Of a stretch of 64,000 nucleotides of DNA, positions 48,050-55,805 are shown one piece after another. Source of the DNA: Methanocellales archaeon (GTDB lineage Archaea; Halobacteriota; UBA148; JAUWXC01); the NCBI GenBank assembly GCA_030018435.1, contig JASEEY010000005.1, positions 38 through 64,037 of the forward strand, written 5' to 3'. Under the pieces are notes generated by a model that made no database searches, was not told the origin of the DNA, and saw only the letters and a list, made by a program, of their open reading frames with translations. The translations under genes and the position numbers were made by a program. How positions within the stretch are numbered: position 1 is the first letter of the stretch; each line of letters opens with the position of its first letter.

Positions 48050-49261
48050 CTAAAAGCTGGCCAGTGTTTTCTGAAATTTAAAATCGTGTATGAGTTTTGC
48101 CTCTTTTTTCCATCTGCGCAACGGAGTTCTTATTCTTGTAGCGACATCGTTGAGCGCGGCATCAGCAGTCTCAAACCGCTTTGGCTCTTGCCTCATCGCG
48201 TCTCTGACCGCCTCCCTAATCACCCAGACACCCAGCGGCGCCCAATAGTCTGGGAGGATTTCCCGCACGATAAAAATCGATGCCTGCCTTTTGATATTCT
48301 CCAGATATTCAACAACGCCAAGACGCGCGGCATAGTATCCTCCAGCCAAAAGAGAATATGTCCTCTTGCCGCCATATCCCTCTCTATCGGCGCCGACCCA
48401 CGTTCCCTCACCCACCCATACAGACCTCGGCATCCATATCTCTATCAGTTCAAAGGAAAATGGACGAGGAAGCAAAAGTATCTCGAACCTATTGCCGAAT
48501 CTCTGTGTGCTGAAAAGCCGGATCTCATCTAATACGGAGTGGTCTTTCACCCTTGCGATTAATTCCTTGCCAACTATGTCGTCCGTGGCAGTAATTGCCC
48601 ACCTCGTTGGAACGAGTCTGCGATCTTTCTTCCGCCCCAACAGTCCGACGGAAAGGAGTCTGTTGATATGATAAACTGAGATATCGCTCTCGTACAACTC
48701 TGTAGTAGCATTTGCAGCCAAGACATCTTTATCAGAGACCAGATAGTCGACCTTTCGCGGAACGGATGGGTTTTCAGTTATGCTCATATCCTTGAGTGTG
48801 CCAGAAGGCCCCATTGGGCTTAAGATGCCGTCAAAGCGCAACTCCATCTTAGGCGGCTTGAGAAATTTGACCTCTGTGTCAACAGGCGCAGACGCCATCG
48901 CGAGCATTTGCGTTTTAATCAGAAGGCGATCACTCAGCACGCGTGGGCTTCTGACATTCAACCGAGTATTGGATCGAACGAGATTTGAGCGCAATCCAAT
49001 TACATCTTCTATCCCTTTGCCCAACCATTGGGCTGGGTCATCGTATATCCGTGCATCTTTGGCAGCGATCTCCGGAGGAACCAATGGACCTAATCTAACG
49101 TCCGGATACCCAACTCGCCCGACGAATACCGATGGAGGAGAGGCACCAAAGATGCTGTCACCTATTGAGGCACGTTTAATCGCGCAAAATTTTGCAAGTA
49201 TGGGGCAAAAAGGTCGCCCGCACAATCCCCTGCCCTTGCATATGACACACCGAGTTTCCAT
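48050..49261 (-). CDS. Nre-family (NreA-like) DNA repair protein
   Basis: N-terminal CxxCxGRGLCGRPFCP zinc motif at the trimmed start METRCVICKG, typical of archaeal Nre proteins. Confidence 0.55.
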   Translation of the reverse strand: METRCVICKGRGLCGRPFCPILAKFCAIKRASIGDSIFGASPPSVFVGRVGYPDVRLGPLVPPEIAAKDARIYDDPAQWLGKGIEDVIGLRSNLVRSNTRLNVRSPRVLSDRLLIKTQMLAMASAPVDTEVKFLKPPKMELRFDGILSPMGPSGTLKDMSITENPSVPRKVDYLVSDKDVLAANATTELYESDISVYHINRLLSVGLLGRKKDRRLVPTRWAITATDDIVGKELIARVKDHSVLDEIRLFSTQRFGNRFEILLLPRPFSFELIEIWMPRSVWVGEGTWVGADREGYGGKRTYSLLAGGYYAARLGVVEYLENIKRQASIFIVREILPDYWAPLGVWVIREAVRDAMRQEPKRFETADAALNDVATRIRTPLRRWKKEAKLIHDFKFQKTLASF

Positions 49262-49328
49262 ACATGAATTCGTTTGAATACGACAAGATTTAAGTTTTGT
49301 TAACGTCGTAACGTTAGCGAGTGAGAAT

Positions 49329-50114
49329 ATGGCTTTGTTAGAGATCAAGGACCTTCATGTGAAGGTAGACGGCAAGGAGATTTTGAGGGGGGTCAACTTG
49401 GAGATAGACAAGGGGGAAGTACACGTTCTTTTGGGCCCCAACGCATCCGGCAAGACGACCCTGGCCATGACGATAATTGGAATGCCCGCCTATAAGGTAT
49501 CAGAGGGCAAGATGCTTTTTGATGGAGAAGATCTTGCCAATTTGGATCCCACACAGCGCGCGAAAAAGGGGATAGGTTTCGTATTCCAGTTCCCGCCTGC
49601 AATCAGGGGAGTAAAACTCCGCGACATAATCAGGCTTTGCGGTGGGAAAGATGCCTGGGACCCGAGCAAGGAGCCCGAGGAAAAATTTGCCATCGAGATG
49701 CTTGAAAAGGTCGGACTTCCCTCCAATTTTAGGGAGAGAGATGTAAACGTTGGTTTTTCTGGGGGCGAGAAGAAAAGGTCTGAGCTGGCGCAAATTTTGG
49801 CAATGAAGCCACGTCTCATGGTTTTAGATGAGCCCGACTCCGGCGTGGATATCGATTCTCTTAAACTGATCGGAAAGCGGGTAGACGACTTTGTCAAGGA
49901 AACCGGGAGCTCACTGCTTCTGATTACCCATTACAGGCACATCCTGCAATACGTCGAGACTGGCTTTGCCCATGTAATGTGCGGGGGCAAAATAATCGTC
50001 ACAGGCGACCCAGAAGACATTTTATCGAGGATAGAGGAGGAAGGGTACTGCGCATATGTCGATGTCTGTCCGCCGGAGATAAAGAAAGACATGGAAAAAT
50101 TCATGCATGTCTGA
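49329..50114 (+). CDS. sufC: Fe-S cluster assembly ATPase SufC
   Basis: ABC ATPase Walker A GPNASGKTT and SGGEKKR signature. Confidence 0.9.
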   Translation: MALLEIKDLHVKVDGKEILRGVNLEIDKGEVHVLLGPNASGKTTLAMTIIGMPAYKVSEGKMLFDGEDLANLDPTQRAKKGIGFVFQFPPAIRGVKLRDIIRLCGGKDAWDPSKEPEEKFAIEMLEKVGLPSNFRERDVNVGFSGGEKKRSELAQILAMKPRLMVLDEPDSGVDIDSLKLIGKRVDDFVKETGSSLLLITHYRHILQYVETGFAHVMCGGKIIVTGDPEDILSRIEEEGYCAYVDVCPPEIKKDMEKFMHV

Positions 50115-50122
50115 GGGGGTAC

Positions 50123-51382
50123 ATGTTTCCAAAATGGTATGCTGACAAAAGAGGAAAGGCAAAAGAGCTTTTAAAGGAGGCGAAACCCGCCAAATATGGC
50201 CCGGATGTAGACCTGGGCGCTTTTAATTTGCAGGCACCTTCCCATGTGAAAATAAACGGACTGGCGGACCTTGAAAAAGATGTTAGAAGCGCTTCCAAGG
50301 TGGTGGGAACCAGGGATGACGAACAATACAGAAGTGGCACCTATTTTCAGTACGACAACGATGTGGTATACTTAAAGTACAGCGAGCAGTTGAAAGAACA
50401 CACCCCAAAAGGATTAATCGTTCTTAACACGGATGATGCAGTTCAAACGTATCCATGGCTGGAGAAGTACTGGTTCAAGGAATTGCCCATGGGACTGGAC
50501 AAATACACTACCTACGTAGCGGCAAACTCAGTTGGCGGAGCCTTCGTCTGGGTGCAGGAAGACGTCAGGATAGAGCATCCCATCCAAGCGTGTTTGTTTA
50601 TGGGAACCAATAGGATGGTCCAGACTCCCCACAATATCATCATCGCCGAGCCCCGCTCGAAGGTTCACCTGATAACCGGCTGCACCGTCCATCCCAAATG
50701 TGAGACGGCAGCGCACGTCGCTGCAACCGAGATTTATGTCAAGGAGGGGGCAGAAGTTACTTGGTCGATGATACACTCCTGGGGGGAGGGGTTTCACATA
50801 AGACCGAGGATGGGGGCCGTCGTCGAAGATGGGGCAACCCTCATGATAAATTATATCCTGTTATCACCGGTCAAATCCATCCAGATGTATCCCACTGTGG
50901 TCCTTAAAGGCAAAGGAGCAAGGGTGAACTTCAGAAATCTGATTTTCGGCAGGGGGAAATCGAACGTCGATGTCGGCAGTGGCGTCATTTTATCGGGTGA
51001 AGAAAGCAGGGGGGAAATCAACAGCAGAGCGGTCATAATGGACGAGGCGACAATAGATATGAGAGGTCTGTTGCGCGGAAATAAACCGAACACGAAAGGA
51101 CATCTCGAGTGCAGGGGATTGTTGTTGAGCGATAGGGCAAAGGCCAAGGCGCACCCGAGCCTGGATGCCAGAACAAATGAAGCTGACCTGACTCATGAAG
51201 CGGCGGTCGGGAAGATCGCTGAGGAGGAGCTATTTTATCTCATGACCAGGGGGTTGAGCAAGGATGAGGCGACTTCCCTGATAGCAAGAGGATTCCTCGA
51301 CACGGATATCCCCGGCCTGCCGCCAACACTTCAGGCGGAAATCGGCAGGATAGTCTCAATGACGACAAAGGAAGTTATGTAA
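50123..51382 (+). CDS. sufB: Fe-S cluster assembly protein SufB/SufD
   Basis: SufBD family; start trimmed to the ATG at 50123 after the sufC stop. Confidence 0.85.
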   Translation: MFPKWYADKRGKAKELLKEAKPAKYGPDVDLGAFNLQAPSHVKINGLADLEKDVRSASKVVGTRDDEQYRSGTYFQYDNDVVYLKYSEQLKEHTPKGLIVLNTDDAVQTYPWLEKYWFKELPMGLDKYTTYVAANSVGGAFVWVQEDVRIEHPIQACLFMGTNRMVQTPHNIIIAEPRSKVHLITGCTVHPKCETAAHVAATEIYVKEGAEVTWSMIHSWGEGFHIRPRMGAVVEDGATLMINYILLSPVKSIQMYPTVVLKGKGARVNFRNLIFGRGKSNVDVGSGVILSGEESRGEINSRAVIMDEATIDMRGLLRGNKPNTKGHLECRGLLLSDRAKAKAHPSLDARTNEADLTHEAAVGKIAEEELFYLMTRGLSKDEATSLIARGFLDTDIPGLPPTLQAEIGRIVSMTTKEVM

Positions 51383-52192
51383 ATAATGGTGTTGTGATTT
51401 TGGTTGAGCCGATTTTCCCAGGATGCCCACCGCATCGGCCCTGCACTGCTTGCAACGGGTTAAAAGCCGCATGTGCTTTTTAACCGCTAACCTGGCCCTG
51501 TCCATTTGCGCACAGGTCGGTCTCCTCTTTCCAGCAAACTCGCCCAAGGGGACCAGCGGCATGACGTTCATGATGTACGCGTATTTAGATGCCCATCGCG
51601 CTATCTTCTCGACCTCACGTTCGTTTATGCCCGGAATTAACACGGTGTTTATTTTTACGGTAATGCCCAGCTCGTGCGCGAGTCTAACGCCCAGTTGCTG
51701 ATTTTCAAGCAGCACATCAAAATCTTTCTTCCGTTGACCGTCAACAGTAATCCACTTGTAGATTTTTCTGGCAGGATTTACGTCCAGAGCATTAATCGTG
51801 ACGGTCAGGAAGTCCAGGCCCATTTCATGAAGCAACCCGACCTTGTCCGGCAGCAGAAGTCCGTTGGTGCTTAAACACGTTTTCAACCTGGGGAAGTGTT
51901 TCTTGACGAGTGTCAGCGTCTCAAACGTTTGGCGATTTGCCAGAGGCTCGCCCGGTCCTGCAACGGCTGCGATCTTGTTGCAGGGCTCTGCCCTGATGGC
52001 GCGTCTCACAACGGAGATTGCCTCTAAAGGGGGTATGACCTTCAGGGTTGCACCTGGCACACCGGACAGTCCATCGGTGCAAACGCCTGCCTCGCAGTAT
52101 CTGCACCTTATATTGCATTGGGGTGCGACCGGCAGATGTATCCTCCCAATGCGATAATGCGCCTCATCATCAAAACAGGGATGCTCTATCAT
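51356..52192 (-). CDS. NifB-family radical SAM protein
   Basis: HPCF..AHYRIGRIHLPVAPQCNIRCRYCE matches the NifB N-terminal radical-SAM signature. Confidence 0.65.
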   Translation of the reverse strand: MIEHPCFDDEAHYRIGRIHLPVAPQCNIRCRYCEAGVCTDGLSGVPGATLKVIPPLEAISVVRRAIRAEPCNKIAAVAGPGEPLANRQTFETLTLVKKHFPRLKTCLSTNGLLLPDKVGLLHEMGLDFLTVTINALDVNPARKIYKWITVDGQRKKDFDVLLENQQLGVRLAHELGITVKINTVLIPGINEREVEKIARWASKYAYIMNVMPLVPLGEFAGKRRPTCAQMDRARLAVKKHMRLLTRCKQCRADAVGILGKSAQPKSQHHYLHNFLCRH

Positions 52193-54607
52193 TCATGCCT
52201 CGCGCAGCATTTCCACTTTGGATTTCTCCTCTGGCGTCATGTATACCCTGACCTTGCTGGGGAATCTGTCTGCCACTTCTGTCAGATGCGTGATCAGTAT
52301 GACTTTGTCGAAGAACGCACCCATGTCAAATAGTTTCTTGACGAAGAGTTCTCTGCTGACCTCTGTGTCCAGAGAGCCTAAATCGCCTTCATCGATGAAC
52401 AGCGTTTTCATCCTTCCGAACGTTCTGCCAACCTGCGGCATGCTCGCAAGTTCCTTTGCAATCGCGAACCTCAATGCAGCGTTGATCTGCGTCTTCTCAC
52501 CACCGCTGAACTCCTGCACGTCATGGAACTCTCCATCCGCACCCCCAACTTCGATGCGCACACCATATCTGTTGTTCTCCTCGTATGGGTTGATCCTGAC
52601 ATTGTTGAAACGCCCGTCCGTTAAATCAGAGAGGTTGGAGGACGCTTCCCTGGCAAGTTGTGGGAGCAATTGCTCTATCGCGTACATCACAATCCCCTTC
52701 TTGTGGAGTATCTTCTCCTTCAGCAGCGTCAGCACCTCGGCGCTCTCCTGCAGGTCTTTAAGAGTGGCTTCAAGCGTCTCTATTTGCTGGGTAATCGCCT
52801 GAAGGTCCTCTATTTCCTTTCCCAGTCGCTTCGCCTCTCCTTCTTTTCCATGAATGGTGGCCTCAATACTCCTCCTCTTTTCCTCCAGCTCCTTCAGCTC
52901 GCGCTCTGTTACGTCATACTGACTTTCAGGTACTTCGAGCGCTTTCAGCGAGTGTTGCAACCGCTCCAATTCCTTTTCCTTTTGCTCCTTTTGACTGGTC
53001 AGATCCTCAATAAGTTTCGAGACATCGCCAATCCCGTCAAGTTCGTTTCTCTTCTGCTCGAGTTCGTCCCTCTTCTGGCGCATGTCCTCTAATTTCCGCT
53101 CTAACTCCCTGAGCTGCGCTTGCTCTGAAACTCCAAATACAATGCGCTCTACTCCGGCCTGAATTTCTCGTATCTTCTCATCGATTTCTCCCAGTCTTAC
53201 GCGATGCGTCTCATCCTCCCTTCTCTTATCATCCTCGATTCTTTTCAGCTGCTCCTGTAGCTCGGAAAGTCTGAAGGAGTCCACATTTATTCTCGCCGTC
53301 TTGGAACAAACGATGTCCAGCTCATTTTTCGAGGATTCTTGCTCCTTGACGAGACTTGCGATGAGTTCGTCTCTGCCCCTCAGCCATTCCATCTCTTTTT
53401 CTATCCTTGTGATGCGCTCGCCAAGTGCGCCCTCTTTTCTGAGGAGCGAGAATGCCTCCCCTGCCCCTATGTCAGTCGTGATTTTGCCGAGTCTTTCCTC
53501 CTGTGCGCTTATCAAGGAGGAGAGACGCTCCAACTCGCGTTGGTACTCATCCGTAACCGTGCGCTTCTGATTTTCGTATATCTGTACCCGCCCCTCCAAC
53601 TCCGTGATTTTGCGCTCCTTCTCCTTCAGCGCATCCCACCTGGATCGCATCGATTCATAGTCCTTTGTCTCCTCGCTCAATTTTGTAATCAATTTCTTTA
53701 TATCCACGGCCTTCTGATTGTCTCCGCGTGCCTTTTCAATCTTTATACCCATTTCCTCCATAGCCCTGGATGTCTCGGATGTCTTGGCCCTTATCTCCAA
53801 AAATTTCTCATGCTTGCCCTTTAAATCCGCCAGCAAACCCCCTTTTTCCGCAATCGCCTTCTCCAACTCATTTAATCTTGCCCTTTCGTCCTCGATCTCT
53901 TTTTTCATCGCAGAAAGTTCTTCTTGCTTCTCTGGGAGTTTTGCCTGCTGCTCCCTTCGCACGGTTAATTCTGACGTCGTACCCTCTATGTCCAATCTGA
54001 TGACATTCAATTTATCTGCCACAACGGTTTGCGCTTTTTCAAAAACCTCCAGCCTGAAGAGTTTCTGAAATATCTCGAGCCTGTCGGCGCCGCTCTGTGC
54101 GCCCAGTTCTTTCATTTCGTCCTGCCTGACGAAAGTCGAGTTTCTGAAACCCACATAATCCAGACCTATGACCTCCTGTATTTTCGCGTCCAACGTCGGA
54201 ATGGCACCGCTAATCGGCAATCCATTCCTTTTGAGGGTTATATAGGAGTTCCCAGAAGAGGTCAGTCCGCGCGTCACCTCATATTGGTCGCGCCCCTGAG
54301 CAAACGTTATCCTGACATAGCCTCCTGGCCGGCATATGTCCTCAATCCTGACATTCGGCAAATCCGTCCTAGAGGTGCGCTTGTATAACGCAAAGGTGAT
54401 TGCATCCAACAAGGATGTCTTGCCCGAGCCCGTTTTACCCACAATCACGGTAAATTTGTGAGGAAAATGAATCGTTGATTTGTCCAGGTACCTCATGAAG
54501 CCCTTGAGCTCGATCTCGCCTATGACAAAACCATCACCGCTTCCAAGAGCCTCGACGGGTGTTTCCCTCACATCCTCAAGGAACGATGTCAGCGTCCTAC
54601 TCTGCAT
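52193..54607 (-). CDS. rad50: Rad50 ATPase, hook-less variant
   Basis: Walker A GKTGSGKTS, long coiled coil, signature FSGGEKT, Walker B/D-loop FIDEGDLGSLD, H-loop ILITH. Only 2 Cys overall and no CxxC hook. Confidence 0.85.
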   Translation of the reverse strand: MQSRTLTSFLEDVRETPVEALGSGDGFVIGEIELKGFMRYLDKSTIHFPHKFTVIVGKTGSGKTSLLDAITFALYKRTSRTDLPNVRIEDICRPGGYVRITFAQGRDQYEVTRGLTSSGNSYITLKRNGLPISGAIPTLDAKIQEVIGLDYVGFRNSTFVRQDEMKELGAQSGADRLEIFQKLFRLEVFEKAQTVVADKLNVIRLDIEGTTSELTVRREQQAKLPEKQEELSAMKKEIEDERARLNELEKAIAEKGGLLADLKGKHEKFLEIRAKTSETSRAMEEMGIKIEKARGDNQKAVDIKKLITKLSEETKDYESMRSRWDALKEKERKITELEGRVQIYENQKRTVTDEYQRELERLSSLISAQEERLGKITTDIGAGEAFSLLRKEGALGERITRIEKEMEWLRGRDELIASLVKEQESSKNELDIVCSKTARINVDSFRLSELQEQLKRIEDDKRREDETHRVRLGEIDEKIREIQAGVERIVFGVSEQAQLRELERKLEDMRQKRDELEQKRNELDGIGDVSKLIEDLTSQKEQKEKELERLQHSLKALEVPESQYDVTERELKELEEKRRSIEATIHGKEGEAKRLGKEIEDLQAITQQIETLEATLKDLQESAEVLTLLKEKILHKKGIVMYAIEQLLPQLAREASSNLSDLTDGRFNNVRINPYEENNRYGVRIEVGGADGEFHDVQEFSGGEKTQINAALRFAIAKELASMPQVGRTFGRMKTLFIDEGDLGSLDTEVSRELFVKKLFDMGAFFDKVILITHLTEVADRFPSKVRVYMTPEEKSKVEMLREA

Positions 54608-55805
54608 GCAACACCTCCTTCAACGCATTCCTACCTTCCTCAAGTAGCTTTTCGCGCTTGGGGTGGCTCTGATAGTTAGAATCGATGAATTTTCTGAGCA
54701 GTTCAAAGGGGTCCATTGTGTAGCTGGCAAAACCAACCTTTTCTCCTGCCTTCTCGGTCCAGTGCACATCATAATTGAATGCGCCTTTCAGCCTTTCAGC
54801 GATCTTATACTCGGCGACCTTGCCCCTCAGCCCTTCATCAATTTCTATCTCTAAACGGACCAACTTTTCCGTCACATCCGGTATGGTATCCAAAATCTTT
54901 TGGGTCGGGTCATCGTTTGCGGTCACTTCCACGTTAATCTTCAGCATGTCTCTTGTAGGCAACTCCACAAATCGCCATTTCTCCTGCTCGAGAGGATTGA
55001 CTACAATAAAACCCTTCTTGTCGTCTTTTTCTCCCCAGTCGATCCTATCGATGGCACCTGTGTATACAATCTCAGTTCCCTGAGCGTGCATCACCTGATG
55101 CAGGTGAATGTGTCCAAAAACCGCAAGGTCCACAGCAGGAACCATATCCTTTCTGAACGAGAACTCGCCTGGCAAGACCTCCGGATATGCGATTCTCTCT
55201 CCCAATCTCGCGCCTTCGATATAGTAATGAGCAAGCAGAAGTTTAAAATCCACGTTTAGCTCATCGGACCTACCGTGAATCCATTGCTTCAAAAATTCCT
55301 GACCCTGGGGGAAAAGTCGCTCTTGTGAGATTTCTCTGCCTGATTCGCCAACCAAGCCTGCGATATCTGCTGGATGCAGGTAGGGAACGATAATGCAGCC
55401 TACGACCTTGTCATCGATCTCAAAATTCTCCACCGCTGGCCGGCGGTACACGCTGACGTGAGGGTAGCCCCTGAAATCGTCGATGGAGGTGCCCCTGTTG
55501 CCGTGGGGCTGGTCGTGATTGCCCGCAAGTATCCAGACCTTGATATTTGCCTTCGCTAACGGCTCGATGACATCCCTTCTGACCAATTCGCGAAAGGTTG
55601 GACTGACATGCGTTCTGTCAAAAAGGTCGCCGAGGATGATGAAGAGTTTTGCATCGTTATTGATGGCAAACTGAGTTGCCCTAGCAAAATTGTCATGGAT
55701 GTCGAAAACCCTCTTTGAAAGACCCGTATCCGGGTCAATCTGGTACCCGAAATTAATGCCCTCGTGAACATCTCCTACGACGATGATTTCGTTCATTGTG
55801 GTCAC
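54597..55805 (-). CDS. mre11: Mre11 nuclease
   Basis: Phosphoesterase motifs GDVHEG, GDLFD, GNHD, GHIH; overlaps the rad50 start. Confidence 0.85.
   Translation of the reverse strand: MTTMNEIIVVGDVHEGINFGYQIDPDTGLSKRVFDIHDNFARATQFAINNDAKLFIILGDLFDRTHVSPTFRELVRRDVIEPLAKANIKVWILAGNHDQPHGNRGTSIDDFRGYPHVSVYRRPAVENFEIDDKVVGCIIVPYLHPADIAGLVGESGREISQERLFPQGQEFLKQWIHGRSDELNVDFKLLLAHYYIEGARLGERIAYPEVLPGEFSFRKDMVPAVDLAVFGHIHLHQVMHAQGTEIVYTGAIDRIDWGEKDDKKGFIVVNPLEQEKWRFVELPTRDMLKINVEVTANDDPTQKILDTIPDVTEKLVRLEIEIDEGLRGKVAEYKIAERLKGAFNYDVHWTEKAGEKVGFASYTMDPFELLRKFIDSNYQSHPKREKLLEEGRNALKEVLHAE

What the first reader, a model, noticed from the sequence alone, without database searches (positions are those of the whole stretch)
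53250..53360. Rad50 without a CxxC zinc hook
The 804-aa Rad50 has all ATPase motifs and a long coiled coil but only two cysteines (aa 91 and aa 434). The apex region reads ..NELDIVCSKTARIN.. instead of the universally conserved CPxC hook that dimerises Rad50 coiled coils via Zn. This points to an alternative apex dimerisation mode, or a Rad50 that cannot tether.
Basis: seen in the sequence. Interest (0 to 1): 0.6.

Follow-up and report, generated by a model that had tools for sequence, protein, structure and literature searches.

The report
Archaeal Rad50 family lacking zinc hook
This DNA-break-repair protein (Rad50) belongs to a large, previously undescribed archaeal family that has lost the zinc-binding "hook" thought to be a hallmark of every Rad50 and carries a different, strongly conserved, cysteine-free tip instead.

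Summary
The 804-aa ORF (52193-54607, minus strand) has intact Rad50 ATPase motifs and ~220-residue coiled-coil arms. It has only two cysteines (aa 92 and 434) and no CxxC. All 120 closest database homologues lack a central CxxC, as do 83 of 83 readable ORFs in related loci and 42 of 42 more distant cluster representatives. Weaker hits are canonical Rad50/SbcC with a mid-protein CxxC, mostly CP.C (41 of 49).

The family sits in the classical archaeal mre11-rad50-nurA-herA operon. It occurs in at least 121 species-level MAGs, including Methanocellales, Methanomassiliicoccales, other Thermoplasmata, Hydrothermarchaeota and Hodarchaeales.

In place of the hook there is a conserved Cys-free module (aa 375-450). 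AlphaFold2 models it confidently as two matched helix breaks, a helical hairpin and a 4-residue tip (aa 409-412) that follows an invariant Trp. The ascending helix is as conserved as the ATPase head, and its extra conservation lies on the face opposite the hydrophobic core. That points to an intermolecular interface.

C434 lies 22 residues past the tip and is not conserved.

Best reading: a hook-less Rad50 subfamily with a zinc-independent apex, probably self-associating. Dimerisation is not demonstrated. I found no prior description.

The parts
52193..54607 (-). Hook-less Rad50-type ATPase CDS, 804 aa including stop codon
   Evidence: ORF listing and translation. Identical to a Methanocellales MAG protein annotated 'SMC family ATPase'. 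Best PDB sequence hits are archaeal Rad50 heads at 4e-18. Best Foldseek hit is C. thermophilum Rad50 7zr1 at 2e-22. Best NCBIfam hits are Rad50 models, all far below their cut-offs.
54416..54439 (-). Walker A GKTGSGKT (aa 57-64)
   Evidence: invariant in the family
54122..54130 (-). Q-loop VRQ (aa 160-162)
   Evidence: Q162 invariant
52496..52507 (-). ABC signature SGGE (aa 701-704)
   Evidence: invariant
52388..52402 (-). Walker B LFIDE (aa 736-740), catalytic Glu retained
   Evidence: D739 and E740 invariant
52286..52291 (-). H-loop TH (aa 773-774)
   Evidence: invariant
53258..53485 (-). Whole conserved Cys-free apex module (aa 375-450) that stands where a zinc hook would be
   Evidence: Conservation island within the coiled coil. 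AF2 secondary structure and high pLDDT. No PDB sequence match and only generic hairpin fold matches.
53384..53464 (-). Ascending apex helix (aa 382-408), motif AFxLLRxEGxLxERxxRIxxExxW. F386, L389, G393, E397, R401, I402, E405 and W408 are invariant.
   Evidence: Information content is 2.8 bits, against 1.5-1.6 in the arms and 3.0-3.3 in the head. The conservation moment points ~160 degrees away from the hydrophobic moment. The motif is present in 81 of the 83 readable locus ORFs. It is also present in distant members and in the Mre11-Rad50 fusions.
53372..53383 (-). Predicted tip loop LRGR (aa 409-412)
   Evidence: Helix break in both AF2 models. The arms are equal on either side, 222 and 221 residues.
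53297..53371 (-). Descending apex helix (aa 413-437). It is poorly conserved and contains the non-conserved C434 (codon 53306-53308).
53258..53296 (-). C-side joint (aa 438-450) with the near-invariant motif I-N-x-D-S-F-x-L-S-E. It lies opposite the N-side break at aa 375-381.
54332..54334 (-). C92 codon: the other cysteine, in the head domain, present in at least 90% of the family
54597..55805 (-). Mre11/SbcD-type nuclease CDS, 402 aa. Its end overlaps the rad50 start by 11 nt.
   Evidence: Pfam Metallophos 1.6e-14. The best NCBIfam hit is SbcD, at 53.8 bits against a cut-off of 77.65. The phosphoesterase motifs GDVHEG, GDLFD, GNHD and GHIH are visible in the translation. An Mre11 gene lies directly upstream of rad50 in every related locus that has room for it.
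51356..52192 (-). NifB-like radical SAM CDS. It abuts the rad50 stop codon and occupies the place where relatives have nurA-herA.
   Evidence: NCBIfam nifB 1.1e-68, below its cut-off. Synteny comparison.

Best explanation
The gene encodes the Rad50 subunit of an archaeal Mre11-Rad50 double-strand-break complex. It belongs to a distinct, widespread subfamily in which the zinc hook has been replaced by a cysteine-free helical apex module.

Shown: (1) a complete SMC/Rad50-type ATPase head; (2) two ~220-residue antiparallel arms; (3) an Mre11 gene immediately upstream; (4) placement of the family in the mre11-rad50-nurA-herA operon; (5) family-wide absence of CxxC; (6) a strongly conserved apex module. 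That module consists of a joint, a 27-residue ascending helix, a 4-residue tip and a 25-residue descending helix.

Inferred: the conserved, solvent-facing stripe of the ascending helix (F386, R390, G393, E397, R398, R401, E405, W408) and the invariant Trp at the tip form a zinc-independent protein-protein interface. Through it the two Rad50 arms of one M2R2 complex, or arms of different complexes, would associate. It would thus do the job of the hook as a constitutive dimerisation module.

A speculative detail: the stripe is self-complementary for an antiparallel helix pair. The pairs would be F386/L409, R390/E405, G393/I402 and E397/R398.

The matched helix breaks on both strands (aa 375-381 and 438-442) would act as a flexible joint below the interface.
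For: Identity as Rad50-type:
- Motifs are intact.
- The best sequence, family and fold matches are all Rad50.
- Mre11 lies directly upstream, with overlapping stop and start codons.
- In 83 related loci Mre11 is upstream wherever the contig allows, and NurA plus HerA are both found downstream in 64 of them.
- Natural Mre11-Rad50 fusions with the same apex motif sit beside NurA-HerA.

Hook absence is a family trait:
- 0 of 120 closest homologues, 0 of 83 locus ORFs and 0 of 42 distant cluster representatives have a central CxxC.
- 41 of 49 weaker, canonical hits have a mid-protein CxxC, mostly CP.C.
- The Pfam PF04423 positive and negative controls agree.

A functional apex:
- Eight invariant residues lie within aa 386-408, and a near-invariant INxDSFxLSE motif lies at 440-449.
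- Information content is 2.8 bits, against 1.5-1.6 in the arms.
- The conservation moment points ~160 degrees from the hydrophobic moment on the ascending helix. On the descending helix the two coincide.
- The AF2 fragment model has pLDDT 93.6 and pTM 0.70, with the tip exactly at the arm midpoint.
- Protein length is tightly conserved, at ~790-830 aa for nearly all full-length homologues.

Precedent that a non-zinc dimeriser can replace the hook: a yeast Rad50 carrying the MukB hinge in place of the hook functions in DNA repair (PMC6969161).
Against: - No dimer was modelled or measured. The AF2 runs were monomers, so the interface is inferred from conservation geometry alone.
- The conserved face could bind another partner instead, or could pack intramolecularly if the hairpin folds back on the arm.
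- W408 is not kept in the Mre11-Rad50 fusion variants.
- All NCBIfam Rad50 models score far below their equivalog cut-offs (146.6 bits against 1000), so orthology to canonical Rad50 is not formally established.
- I could not test whether the same genomes also encode a hook-bearing Rad50.
- In this window and its two closest relatives nurA-herA are missing from the locus, so the functional context here is less complete than in the rest of the family.
Confidence: 0.55

Rival explanations
1. The protein is a true hook-less Rad50, but its arms are not joined at the apex. The conserved apex module would instead be a docking site for another factor (HerA-NurA, Mre11, DNA or an unknown protein). Alternatively it would be an intramolecular cap in which the 382-437 hairpin folds back on the arm as a four-helix bundle. 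The complex would then be held together only at the heads by the Mre11 dimer.
For: Only one helix of the hairpin carries the extra conservation, as expected for a docking surface. The linkers of 7 and 5 residues are long enough to let the hairpin fold back. The conserved stripe is mixed-charge rather than hydrophobic. Most family members are encoded next to NurA-HerA.
Against: The motif is unchanged (AFSLLRKEGALGER) in the window, L004 and L005, where nurA-herA have been deleted from the locus. Foldseek matches of the fragment model are extended two-helix hairpins, not four-helix bundles. Hook or hinge-type joining of the arms is needed for Rad50 function where it has been tested (PMC6969161).
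Confidence: 0.25
2. It is not the cell's Rad50 but a paralogous SMC-like ATPase with an SbcD-like nuclease. That could be a defence or other specialised system of the Lamassu LmuB, ASRP/ClsN or arcadin-4 kind. A hook-bearing Rad50 would be encoded elsewhere in the genome.
For: NCBI annotates it only as 'SMC family ATPase'. All Rad50 equivalog models score far below their cut-offs. Weak PADLOC hits to mad3, LmuB and PtuA exist. Some LmuB proteins also lack a hook (PMC10586767). Patchy distribution across phyla suggests horizontal transfer. Co-occurrence with a canonical Rad50 was not testable.
Against: The family occupies the rad50 slot of the canonical mre11-rad50-nurA-herA operon in most loci. 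PADLOC hits are mostly limited to the P-loop region, and the Mre11-like protein has no PADLOC hit. ASRP scores 63.6 bits against a cut-off of 300, and arcadin-4 48.7 against 860. Walker B keeps its Glu, unlike typical LmuB. The surrounding genes are housekeeping ones: topo VI, SufBC and Nre.
Confidence: 0.07
3. The apex still dimerises through a metal, using carboxylate ligands (invariant E397 and E405; near-invariant D443 and E449) instead of cysteines.
For: Several invariant or near-invariant acidic residues lie in the module.
Against: There is no conserved His or Cys. The acidic residues alternate with invariant arginines, which looks like a salt-bridge pattern rather than a metal site. Nothing tested here bears on metal binding directly.
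Confidence: 0.05
4. Sequencing, assembly or frame error has removed or hidden a CxxC hook in this contig.
For: None, beyond the a priori expectation that Rad50 has a hook.
Against: The ORF is uninterrupted. No CxxC occurs in any coding-strand frame. There is gap-free, full-length alignment to many independent assemblies, all of them hook-less.
Confidence: 0.01

Closest known systems
Canonical archaeal Rad50 (P. furiosus, M. jannaschii; NCBIfam NF003034, NF041034, NF002244)
   Same: Split ABC ATPase head with Walker A, Q-loop, signature, Walker B and H-loop. Long antiparallel coiled coil. Mre11 gene upstream. mre11-rad50-nurA-herA operon in relatives. These are the best sequence and fold matches.
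   Different: No CxxC zinc hook and no PF04423 match. A conserved Cys-free joint-hairpin-tip module stands in its place. Somewhat shorter, at ~800 aa against ~880. Scores are far below the equivalog cut-offs.
Bacterial SbcC of SbcCD (TIGR00618)
   Same: Same architecture, with an SbcD/Mre11 partner. JGI annotates many family members as 'exonuclease SbcC'.
   Different: SbcC has the hook and is longer (~1040 aa). The hit is weaker than to archaeal Rad50 (91 bits). The archaeal NurA-HerA context is absent from bacteria.
Yeast Rad50 with the MukB hinge in place of the hook (engineered chimera, PMC6969161)
   Same: A Rad50 whose arms are joined by a zinc-free module. It shows that the hook's role is a replaceable constitutive dimerisation.
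   Different: The chimera is artificial and uses a globular hinge domain. Here the replacement is natural and is a small helical hairpin whose dimerisation is only inferred.
RecN (bacterial SMC-like DSB-repair ATPase)
   Same: From memory, not tested here: a coiled-coil ABC ATPase that has neither hook nor hinge and dimerises through the distal end of its coiled coil.
   Different: RecN has much shorter arms, no Mre11 partner and is bacterial. The NCBIfam recN hit is negligible (18 bits).
Lamassu LmuB
   Same: A Rad50-like coiled-coil ATPase in which 'many (but not all)' members have a zinc hook (PMC10586767). Weak PADLOC hits.
   Different: LmuB is ~650 aa, usually has a Walker B E-to-Q substitution, and pairs with LmuA and LmuC. 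Here the Walker B Glu is intact, the partner is Mre11, and the context is the repair operon.
Archaea-specific SMC-related proteins (ASRP: ClsN, Sph1/2; PMC9389158)
   Same: Archaeal SMC-superfamily proteins with a coiled coil and no hinge.
   Different: The vast majority of ASRPs have a zinc hook. They are not linked to Mre11. The NCBIfam ASRP score is 63.6 bits against a cut-off of 300.

Membership tests
Rad50/SbcC | N-terminal Walker A and C-terminal signature, Walker B and H-loop forming one ABC ATPase head | tested here: met
   Motifs located and invariant in the family. In the AF2 full-length model the N- and C-terminal head segments have the mixed strand/helix secondary structure of an ABC head. 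The best fold hit is Rad50 7zr1 at E 2e-22.
Rad50/SbcC | Long antiparallel intramolecular coiled coil between the two head halves | tested here: met
   AF2 models helices 187-408 and 413-633 with mean pLDDT 80. The apex fragment model has pLDDT 93.6.
Rad50/SbcC | Central CxxC zinc hook at the coiled-coil apex (Pfam PF04423) | tested here: not met
   No CxxC in the protein or in other coding-strand frames. No PF04423 hit, while 4 of 5 canonical relatives do hit. Absent in 120/120, 83/83 and 42/42 relatives.
Rad50/SbcC | Partner Mre11/SbcD phosphoesterase encoded adjacently | tested here: met
   A 402-aa Metallophos protein lies directly upstream and overlaps by 11 nt. The arrangement is conserved in related loci.
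Rad50/SbcC | Score above the curated equivalog cut-off of a Rad50 or SbcC model | tested here: not met
   Best is NF041034 at 146.6 bits against a cut-off of 1000. NF003034 scores 123.3 against 700, and TIGR00618 91.4 against 478.5.
Archaeal end-resection operon (mre11-rad50-nurA-herA) | nurA and herA adjacent to mre11-rad50 | tested here: not met
   Not met in this window: no NurA or HerA anywhere in the 64 kb. The same holds for L005, and for L004 as far as that contig extends past rad50. Met for the family: both genes are found downstream in 64 of 83 related loci.
Rad50/SbcC | Sole Rad50-type protein of the genome (orthologue rather than extra paralogue) | not testable with these tools
SMC proper | Globular hinge domain at the apex | tested here: not met
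   No SMC_hinge Pfam hit. The apex is a helical hairpin. SMC models score about 51 bits against cut-offs above 560.
ASRP / ClsN / Sph | NCBIfam NF045487 above its cut-off; zinc hook in most members | tested here: not met
   63.6 bits against 300. No hook.
Lamassu LmuB and other defence SMC-like ATPases | Full-length PADLOC match and the system's partner genes (LmuA, LmuC) | tested here: not met
   PADLOC hits are weak and mostly confined to the P-loop. The neighbouring nuclease has no PADLOC hit. The neighbours are Mre11, topo VI and Suf genes.
Arcadin-4 (Rkd4) | NCBIfam NF053563 above its cut-off | tested here: not met
   48.7 bits against 860.

The most novel reading that the evidence does not exclude
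A natural, zinc-independent apex-joining module has replaced the zinc hook in a whole clade of archaeal Mre11-Rad50 complexes. The clade spans Halobacteriota, Thermoplasmatota, Hydrothermarchaeota and Asgard archaea. The module is an invariant-Trp-tipped helical hairpin with a self-complementary charged stripe. If true, the hook is not a universal requirement of Rad50, and there is a new minimal way to join SMC-like arms. The more extreme variant, that these complexes work with unjoined arms, is also not excluded (about 0.15-0.2).
Probability: 0.45. Interest if true: 0.72.

Novelty: new variant of a known kind. Interest (0 to 1): 0.62.

Why it matters
Reviews treat the zinc hook as a defining, highly conserved feature of Rad50/SbcC (PMC10586767, PMC6969161). 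Its role, constitutive arm joining versus dynamic inter-complex tethering, is still debated.

A large natural clade keeps Mre11, the ATPase motifs, the arm length and the repair-operon context, but swaps the hook for a small conserved helical module. That amounts to an evolutionary experiment on this question. It says which property of the apex is indispensable. It also offers a compact, metal-free module to test by swapping into model Rad50s.

There is an annotation consequence too. These proteins are currently labelled only 'SMC family ATPase', 'AAA family ATPase' or 'SbcC'. Rad50 therefore appears to be missing from many Thermoplasmatota and Methanocellales MAGs in pathway surveys.

Tried and rejected
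1. Hidden CxxC in another frame or a frameshift. None on the coding strand. The two CxxC strings on the opposite strand lie in spurious antisense ORFs.
2. C434 as a remnant of the hook. Rejected: it is not conserved even at 84% identity, and it sits 22 residues from the predicted tip.
3. Sequence search of the apex peptide (aa 370-455) against PDB at E up to 10. No hits.
5. Defence-system assignment through PADLOC. Only weak, mostly P-loop-level hits.
6. Taxonomy of the nearest hook-bearing relatives through cluster look-ups. Mostly unnamed. The few names were Nitrososphaerales and 'Euryarchaeota archaeon', which does not help.
7. Literature searches for a hook-less Rad50. Nothing on this family. 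The one paper mentioning an absent CxxC concerns hinge-less actinobacterial SMC, which is unrelated.
8. Search for nurA, herA and hjc in the window by tblastn. Absent.
9. Considered but not run:
- Covariation or DCA analysis for homodimer contacts. The sequences are too few and the key residues are invariant.
- A rooted phylogeny. No outgroup sequences were in hand.
- A further whole-database protein search to look for a second Rad50 in the same chromosomes. The chance of it surfacing among the 120 hits displayed was low.
Full report
**What is at the coordinates**

- The interval 53250-53360 lies inside a single uninterrupted ORF on the minus strand, 52193..54607, of 804 aa.
- Translation shows cysteines only at aa 92 and 434.
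- The quoted peptide NELDIVCSKTARIN is at aa 428-441.
- All ATPase motifs are present: Walker A GKTGSGKT at 57-64, Q-loop VRQ at 160-162, signature SGGE at 701-704, Walker B LFIDE at 736-740, and H-loop TH at 773-774.
- No CxxC occurs in any of the three coding-strand frames of the central 900 nt.
- Pfam finds AAA_23, SMC_N and AAA_29, but no Rad50_zn_hook.

**It is not an artefact and not a private feature**

- The protein is identical to a Methanocellales MAG protein annotated only as 'SMC family ATPase'.
- None of the 120 best database homologues has a CxxC in the central third. These are 46-84% identical, nearly all ~790-830 aa long, and come from Methanocellales, a Methanosarcinales MAG, Methanomassiliicoccales and other Thermoplasmata.
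- Most of them have only one cysteine, the head-domain one equivalent to C92. C434 is not conserved even in the 84% homologue.
- A scan of one genome per GTDB species found the family in 121 genomes, all of them MAGs. They include Hydrothermarchaeota, one Bathyarchaeota and one Hodarchaeota.
- In all 83 related loci with a readable ORF the protein lacks a central CxxC, and 81 carry the same apex motif.
- In an exhaustive search of 1.84 billion 50%-identity cluster representatives, none of the 42 full-length representatives ranked above about 150 bits has a central CxxC. Among the weaker hits, 41 of 49 are canonical Rad50/SbcC with a CxxC, mostly CP.C, at mid-protein.
- As a control, Pfam PF04423 is detected above threshold in 4 of 5 of those canonical relatives and in none of 4 hook-less members.

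**Is it a Rad50?**

Evidence in favour:
- The best solved-structure sequence matches are archaeal Rad50 heads (M. jannaschii, 4e-18).
- The best Foldseek match of the full-length AF2 model is Chaetomium thermophilum Rad50 (7zr1, 2e-22), ahead of Smc5/6, condensin and MukB.
- The best NCBIfam matches are three archaeal Rad50 equivalog models, followed by SbcC.

Evidence for caution:
- All of those NCBIfam scores are far below the curated cut-offs (146.6 bits against 1000). This explains the bland public annotation.

Genomic context:
- Directly upstream, overlapping by 11 nt, is a 402-aa Mre11/SbcD-type phosphoesterase. Its motifs GDVHEG, GDLFD, GNHD and GHIH are intact.
- In related loci the order is topo VI A/B (divergent), then mre11, rad50, nurA, herA and, in some, hjc.
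- tblastn across 83 related loci finds Mre11 upstream wherever there is room, and both NurA and HerA downstream in 64.
- Natural Mre11-Rad50 fusion proteins of ~1200 aa with the same apex motif also sit next to NurA-HerA.

The family therefore occupies the rad50 slot of the canonical archaeal end-resection operon.

Alternatives that fail their tests:
- PADLOC gives only weak, mostly P-loop-level hits (mad3, LmuB, PtuA) and nothing for the nuclease.
- ASRP and arcadin-4 models score far below their cut-offs.

**What replaces the hook**

Conservation along the family alignment shows an island in the middle of an otherwise poorly conserved coiled coil. F386, L389, G393, E397, R401, I402, E405 and W408 are invariant across the 86 aligned sequences. 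A385, E392, L395, R398, I440, D443, S444, F445 and E449 are at 90% or more.

AF2 models:
- The full-length model has mean pLDDT 80. The fragment model of aa 330-500 has pLDDT 93.6 and pTM 0.70.
- Both give the same secondary structure: helix to 374, break at 375-381, helix 382-408, four-residue turn at 409-412, helix 413-437, break at 438-442, then a helix onward.
- The arms on either side of 409-412 are 222 and 221 residues, so this turn is the geometric tip.
C434 is 22 residues past the tip.

Measured on a set made non-redundant at 80% identity:

| Region | Information content |
|---|---|
| Ascending apex helix (aa 382-408) | 2.8 bits per site |
| C-side joint | 2.8 bits per site |
| Head domain | 3.0-3.3 bits per site |
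| Arms and descending apex helix | 1.5-1.6 bits per site |

- On the descending helix, the extra conservation coincides with the hydrophobic (core) face.
- On the ascending helix, it points ~160 degrees away from that face.
- The ascending helix therefore has a conserved second face that the intramolecular hairpin does not explain. This face is F386, R390, G393, E397, R398, R401, E405 and W408.
- W408, at the very tip, is the most informative position of the module (6.25 bits).
- The motif persists down to ~31% identity (Hodarchaeales). It also persists in the Mre11-Rad50 fusions, although those lack the Trp.

**Mechanism**

Shown: an intact ATPase, an Mre11 partner, conserved arm length, no cysteine-based metal site, and a conserved apex module with an exposed conserved face.

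Inferred:
- The module is a zinc-independent interface that joins Rad50 arms and so takes over the hook's role.
- The alternating Arg/Glu pattern, with a Gly in the middle and aromatic or aliphatic residues at both ends, would be self-complementary in an antiparallel helix pair. The pairs would be F386/L409, R390/E405, G393/I402 and E397/R398. This detail is speculation.
- The matched breaks at 375-381 and 438-442, with their own conserved residues, look like a structured joint below the interface.
- The idea is biologically plausible. A yeast Rad50 whose hook was replaced by the MukB hinge still functions in repair (PMC6969161).

The main rival is that the conserved face binds another partner or packs back on the arm, and that the arms are not joined at the apex. 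Against a NurA-HerA docking role: the motif is unchanged in the sub-lineage that has lost nurA-herA from the locus. Foldseek hits of the fragment model are extended hairpins rather than four-helix bundles. Neither point is decisive.

**Comparison with what is known**

- Reviews define Rad50 by the zinc hook plus Mre11 (PMC10586767) and call the hook highly conserved through evolution (PMC6969161).
- Hook loss has been noted for some Lamassu LmuB proteins. Hook-less, hinge-less SMC-like proteins exist, for example RecN (from memory) and an actinobacterial hinge-less SMC (PMC12153180).
- Six full-text searches found no description of a hook-less Rad50 in the mre11-rad50-nurA-herA operon, or of this apex motif. 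Absence from that library is not proof of absence from the literature.

By the membership test the protein meets every Rad50 criterion except two: the hook, and the curated equivalog score cut-offs, which it misses by a wide margin. I therefore file it as a new variant, a hook-less subfamily of the Rad50 kind, and not as a canonical Rad50.

**Limits**

- I could not model or measure a dimer.
- I could not retrieve coordinates of the AF2 models to measure exposure directly.
- I could not scan whole genomes for a second, hook-bearing Rad50.
- No rooted phylogeny was made. 'Loss' of the hook is inferred by parsimony from its presence in bacterial, phage, archaeal and eukaryotic Rad50/SbcC.

**Verdict**

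Interest is 0.62. Novelty: new variant of a known kind.

Noticed in passing
window 52192/52193 junction; compare L006, L009, L068, L076, L078 with L004, L005: nurA-herA are cleanly missing here. The rad50 stop codon abuts the start of a NifB-like radical-SAM gene. Other Methanocellales relatives have rad50-nurA-herA-nifB-like-sufBD. Only the window and its two closest relatives (88% and 80% identity) show the deletion, and there is no NurA or HerA anywhere in the 64 kb. Whether the genes moved or were lost is unknown.
   Followed up: partly
P0151, P0155, P0158, P0161; locus L085 6001-9579: Natural Mre11-Rad50 fusion proteins of ~1200 aa carry the same apex motif, without the tip Trp. In L085 the gene order is pAgo (Piwi), NurA, HerA, the fusion, then an OLD-family nuclease.
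   Followed up: partly
window Rad50 aa 266, 491, 527-528, 561, 564 (nt ~53810, 53135, 53024-53029, 52925, 52916): Isolated conserved residues sit in the middle of the otherwise variable arms. H266 is invariant; F491, G527-D528, E561 and Y564 are nearly so. H266 and E561/Y564 lie at similar distances from the head, so they may face each other. This could be a conserved arm-arm or partner contact, or a joint.
   Followed up: no
P0157, P0160, P0165, P0168, P0175 and others; locus L084: A second, shorter (~690-740 aa) group of Rad50-like proteins also lacks CxxC. Its apex is different and unalignable. P0175 is preceded by a 471-aa Metallophos protein, with no NurA or HerA nearby. Hook loss may have happened more than once.
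   Followed up: partly
window 48050-49348 (-): This ORF is 63% identical to a gene in L002 that carries the Pfam domains Nre_N and Nre_C (archaeal Nre family). It lies next to SufC and SufBD. The block topo VI / mre11-rad50 / Suf / Nre is syntenic between this window and the Methanosarcinales Met12 contigs.
   Followed up: no
window 54597-54607: The mre11 stop and the rad50 start overlap by 11 nt, which suggests translational coupling. Rad50 has a ~25-residue N-terminal extension before the first beta-strand. AF2 models it poorly (pLDDT 35), but it contains a family-conserved TLExF motif.
   Followed up: no
L010 (WVZL01000043.1) and L073 (CAVTBR010000001.1): One family member sits in a MAG labelled Candidatus Aminicenantes (a bacterium), on a 6-kb contig. 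Another sits on a 1.57-Mb Bathyarchaeota contig. The first looks like a binning error. The second suggests horizontal transfer of the operon.
   Followed up: no
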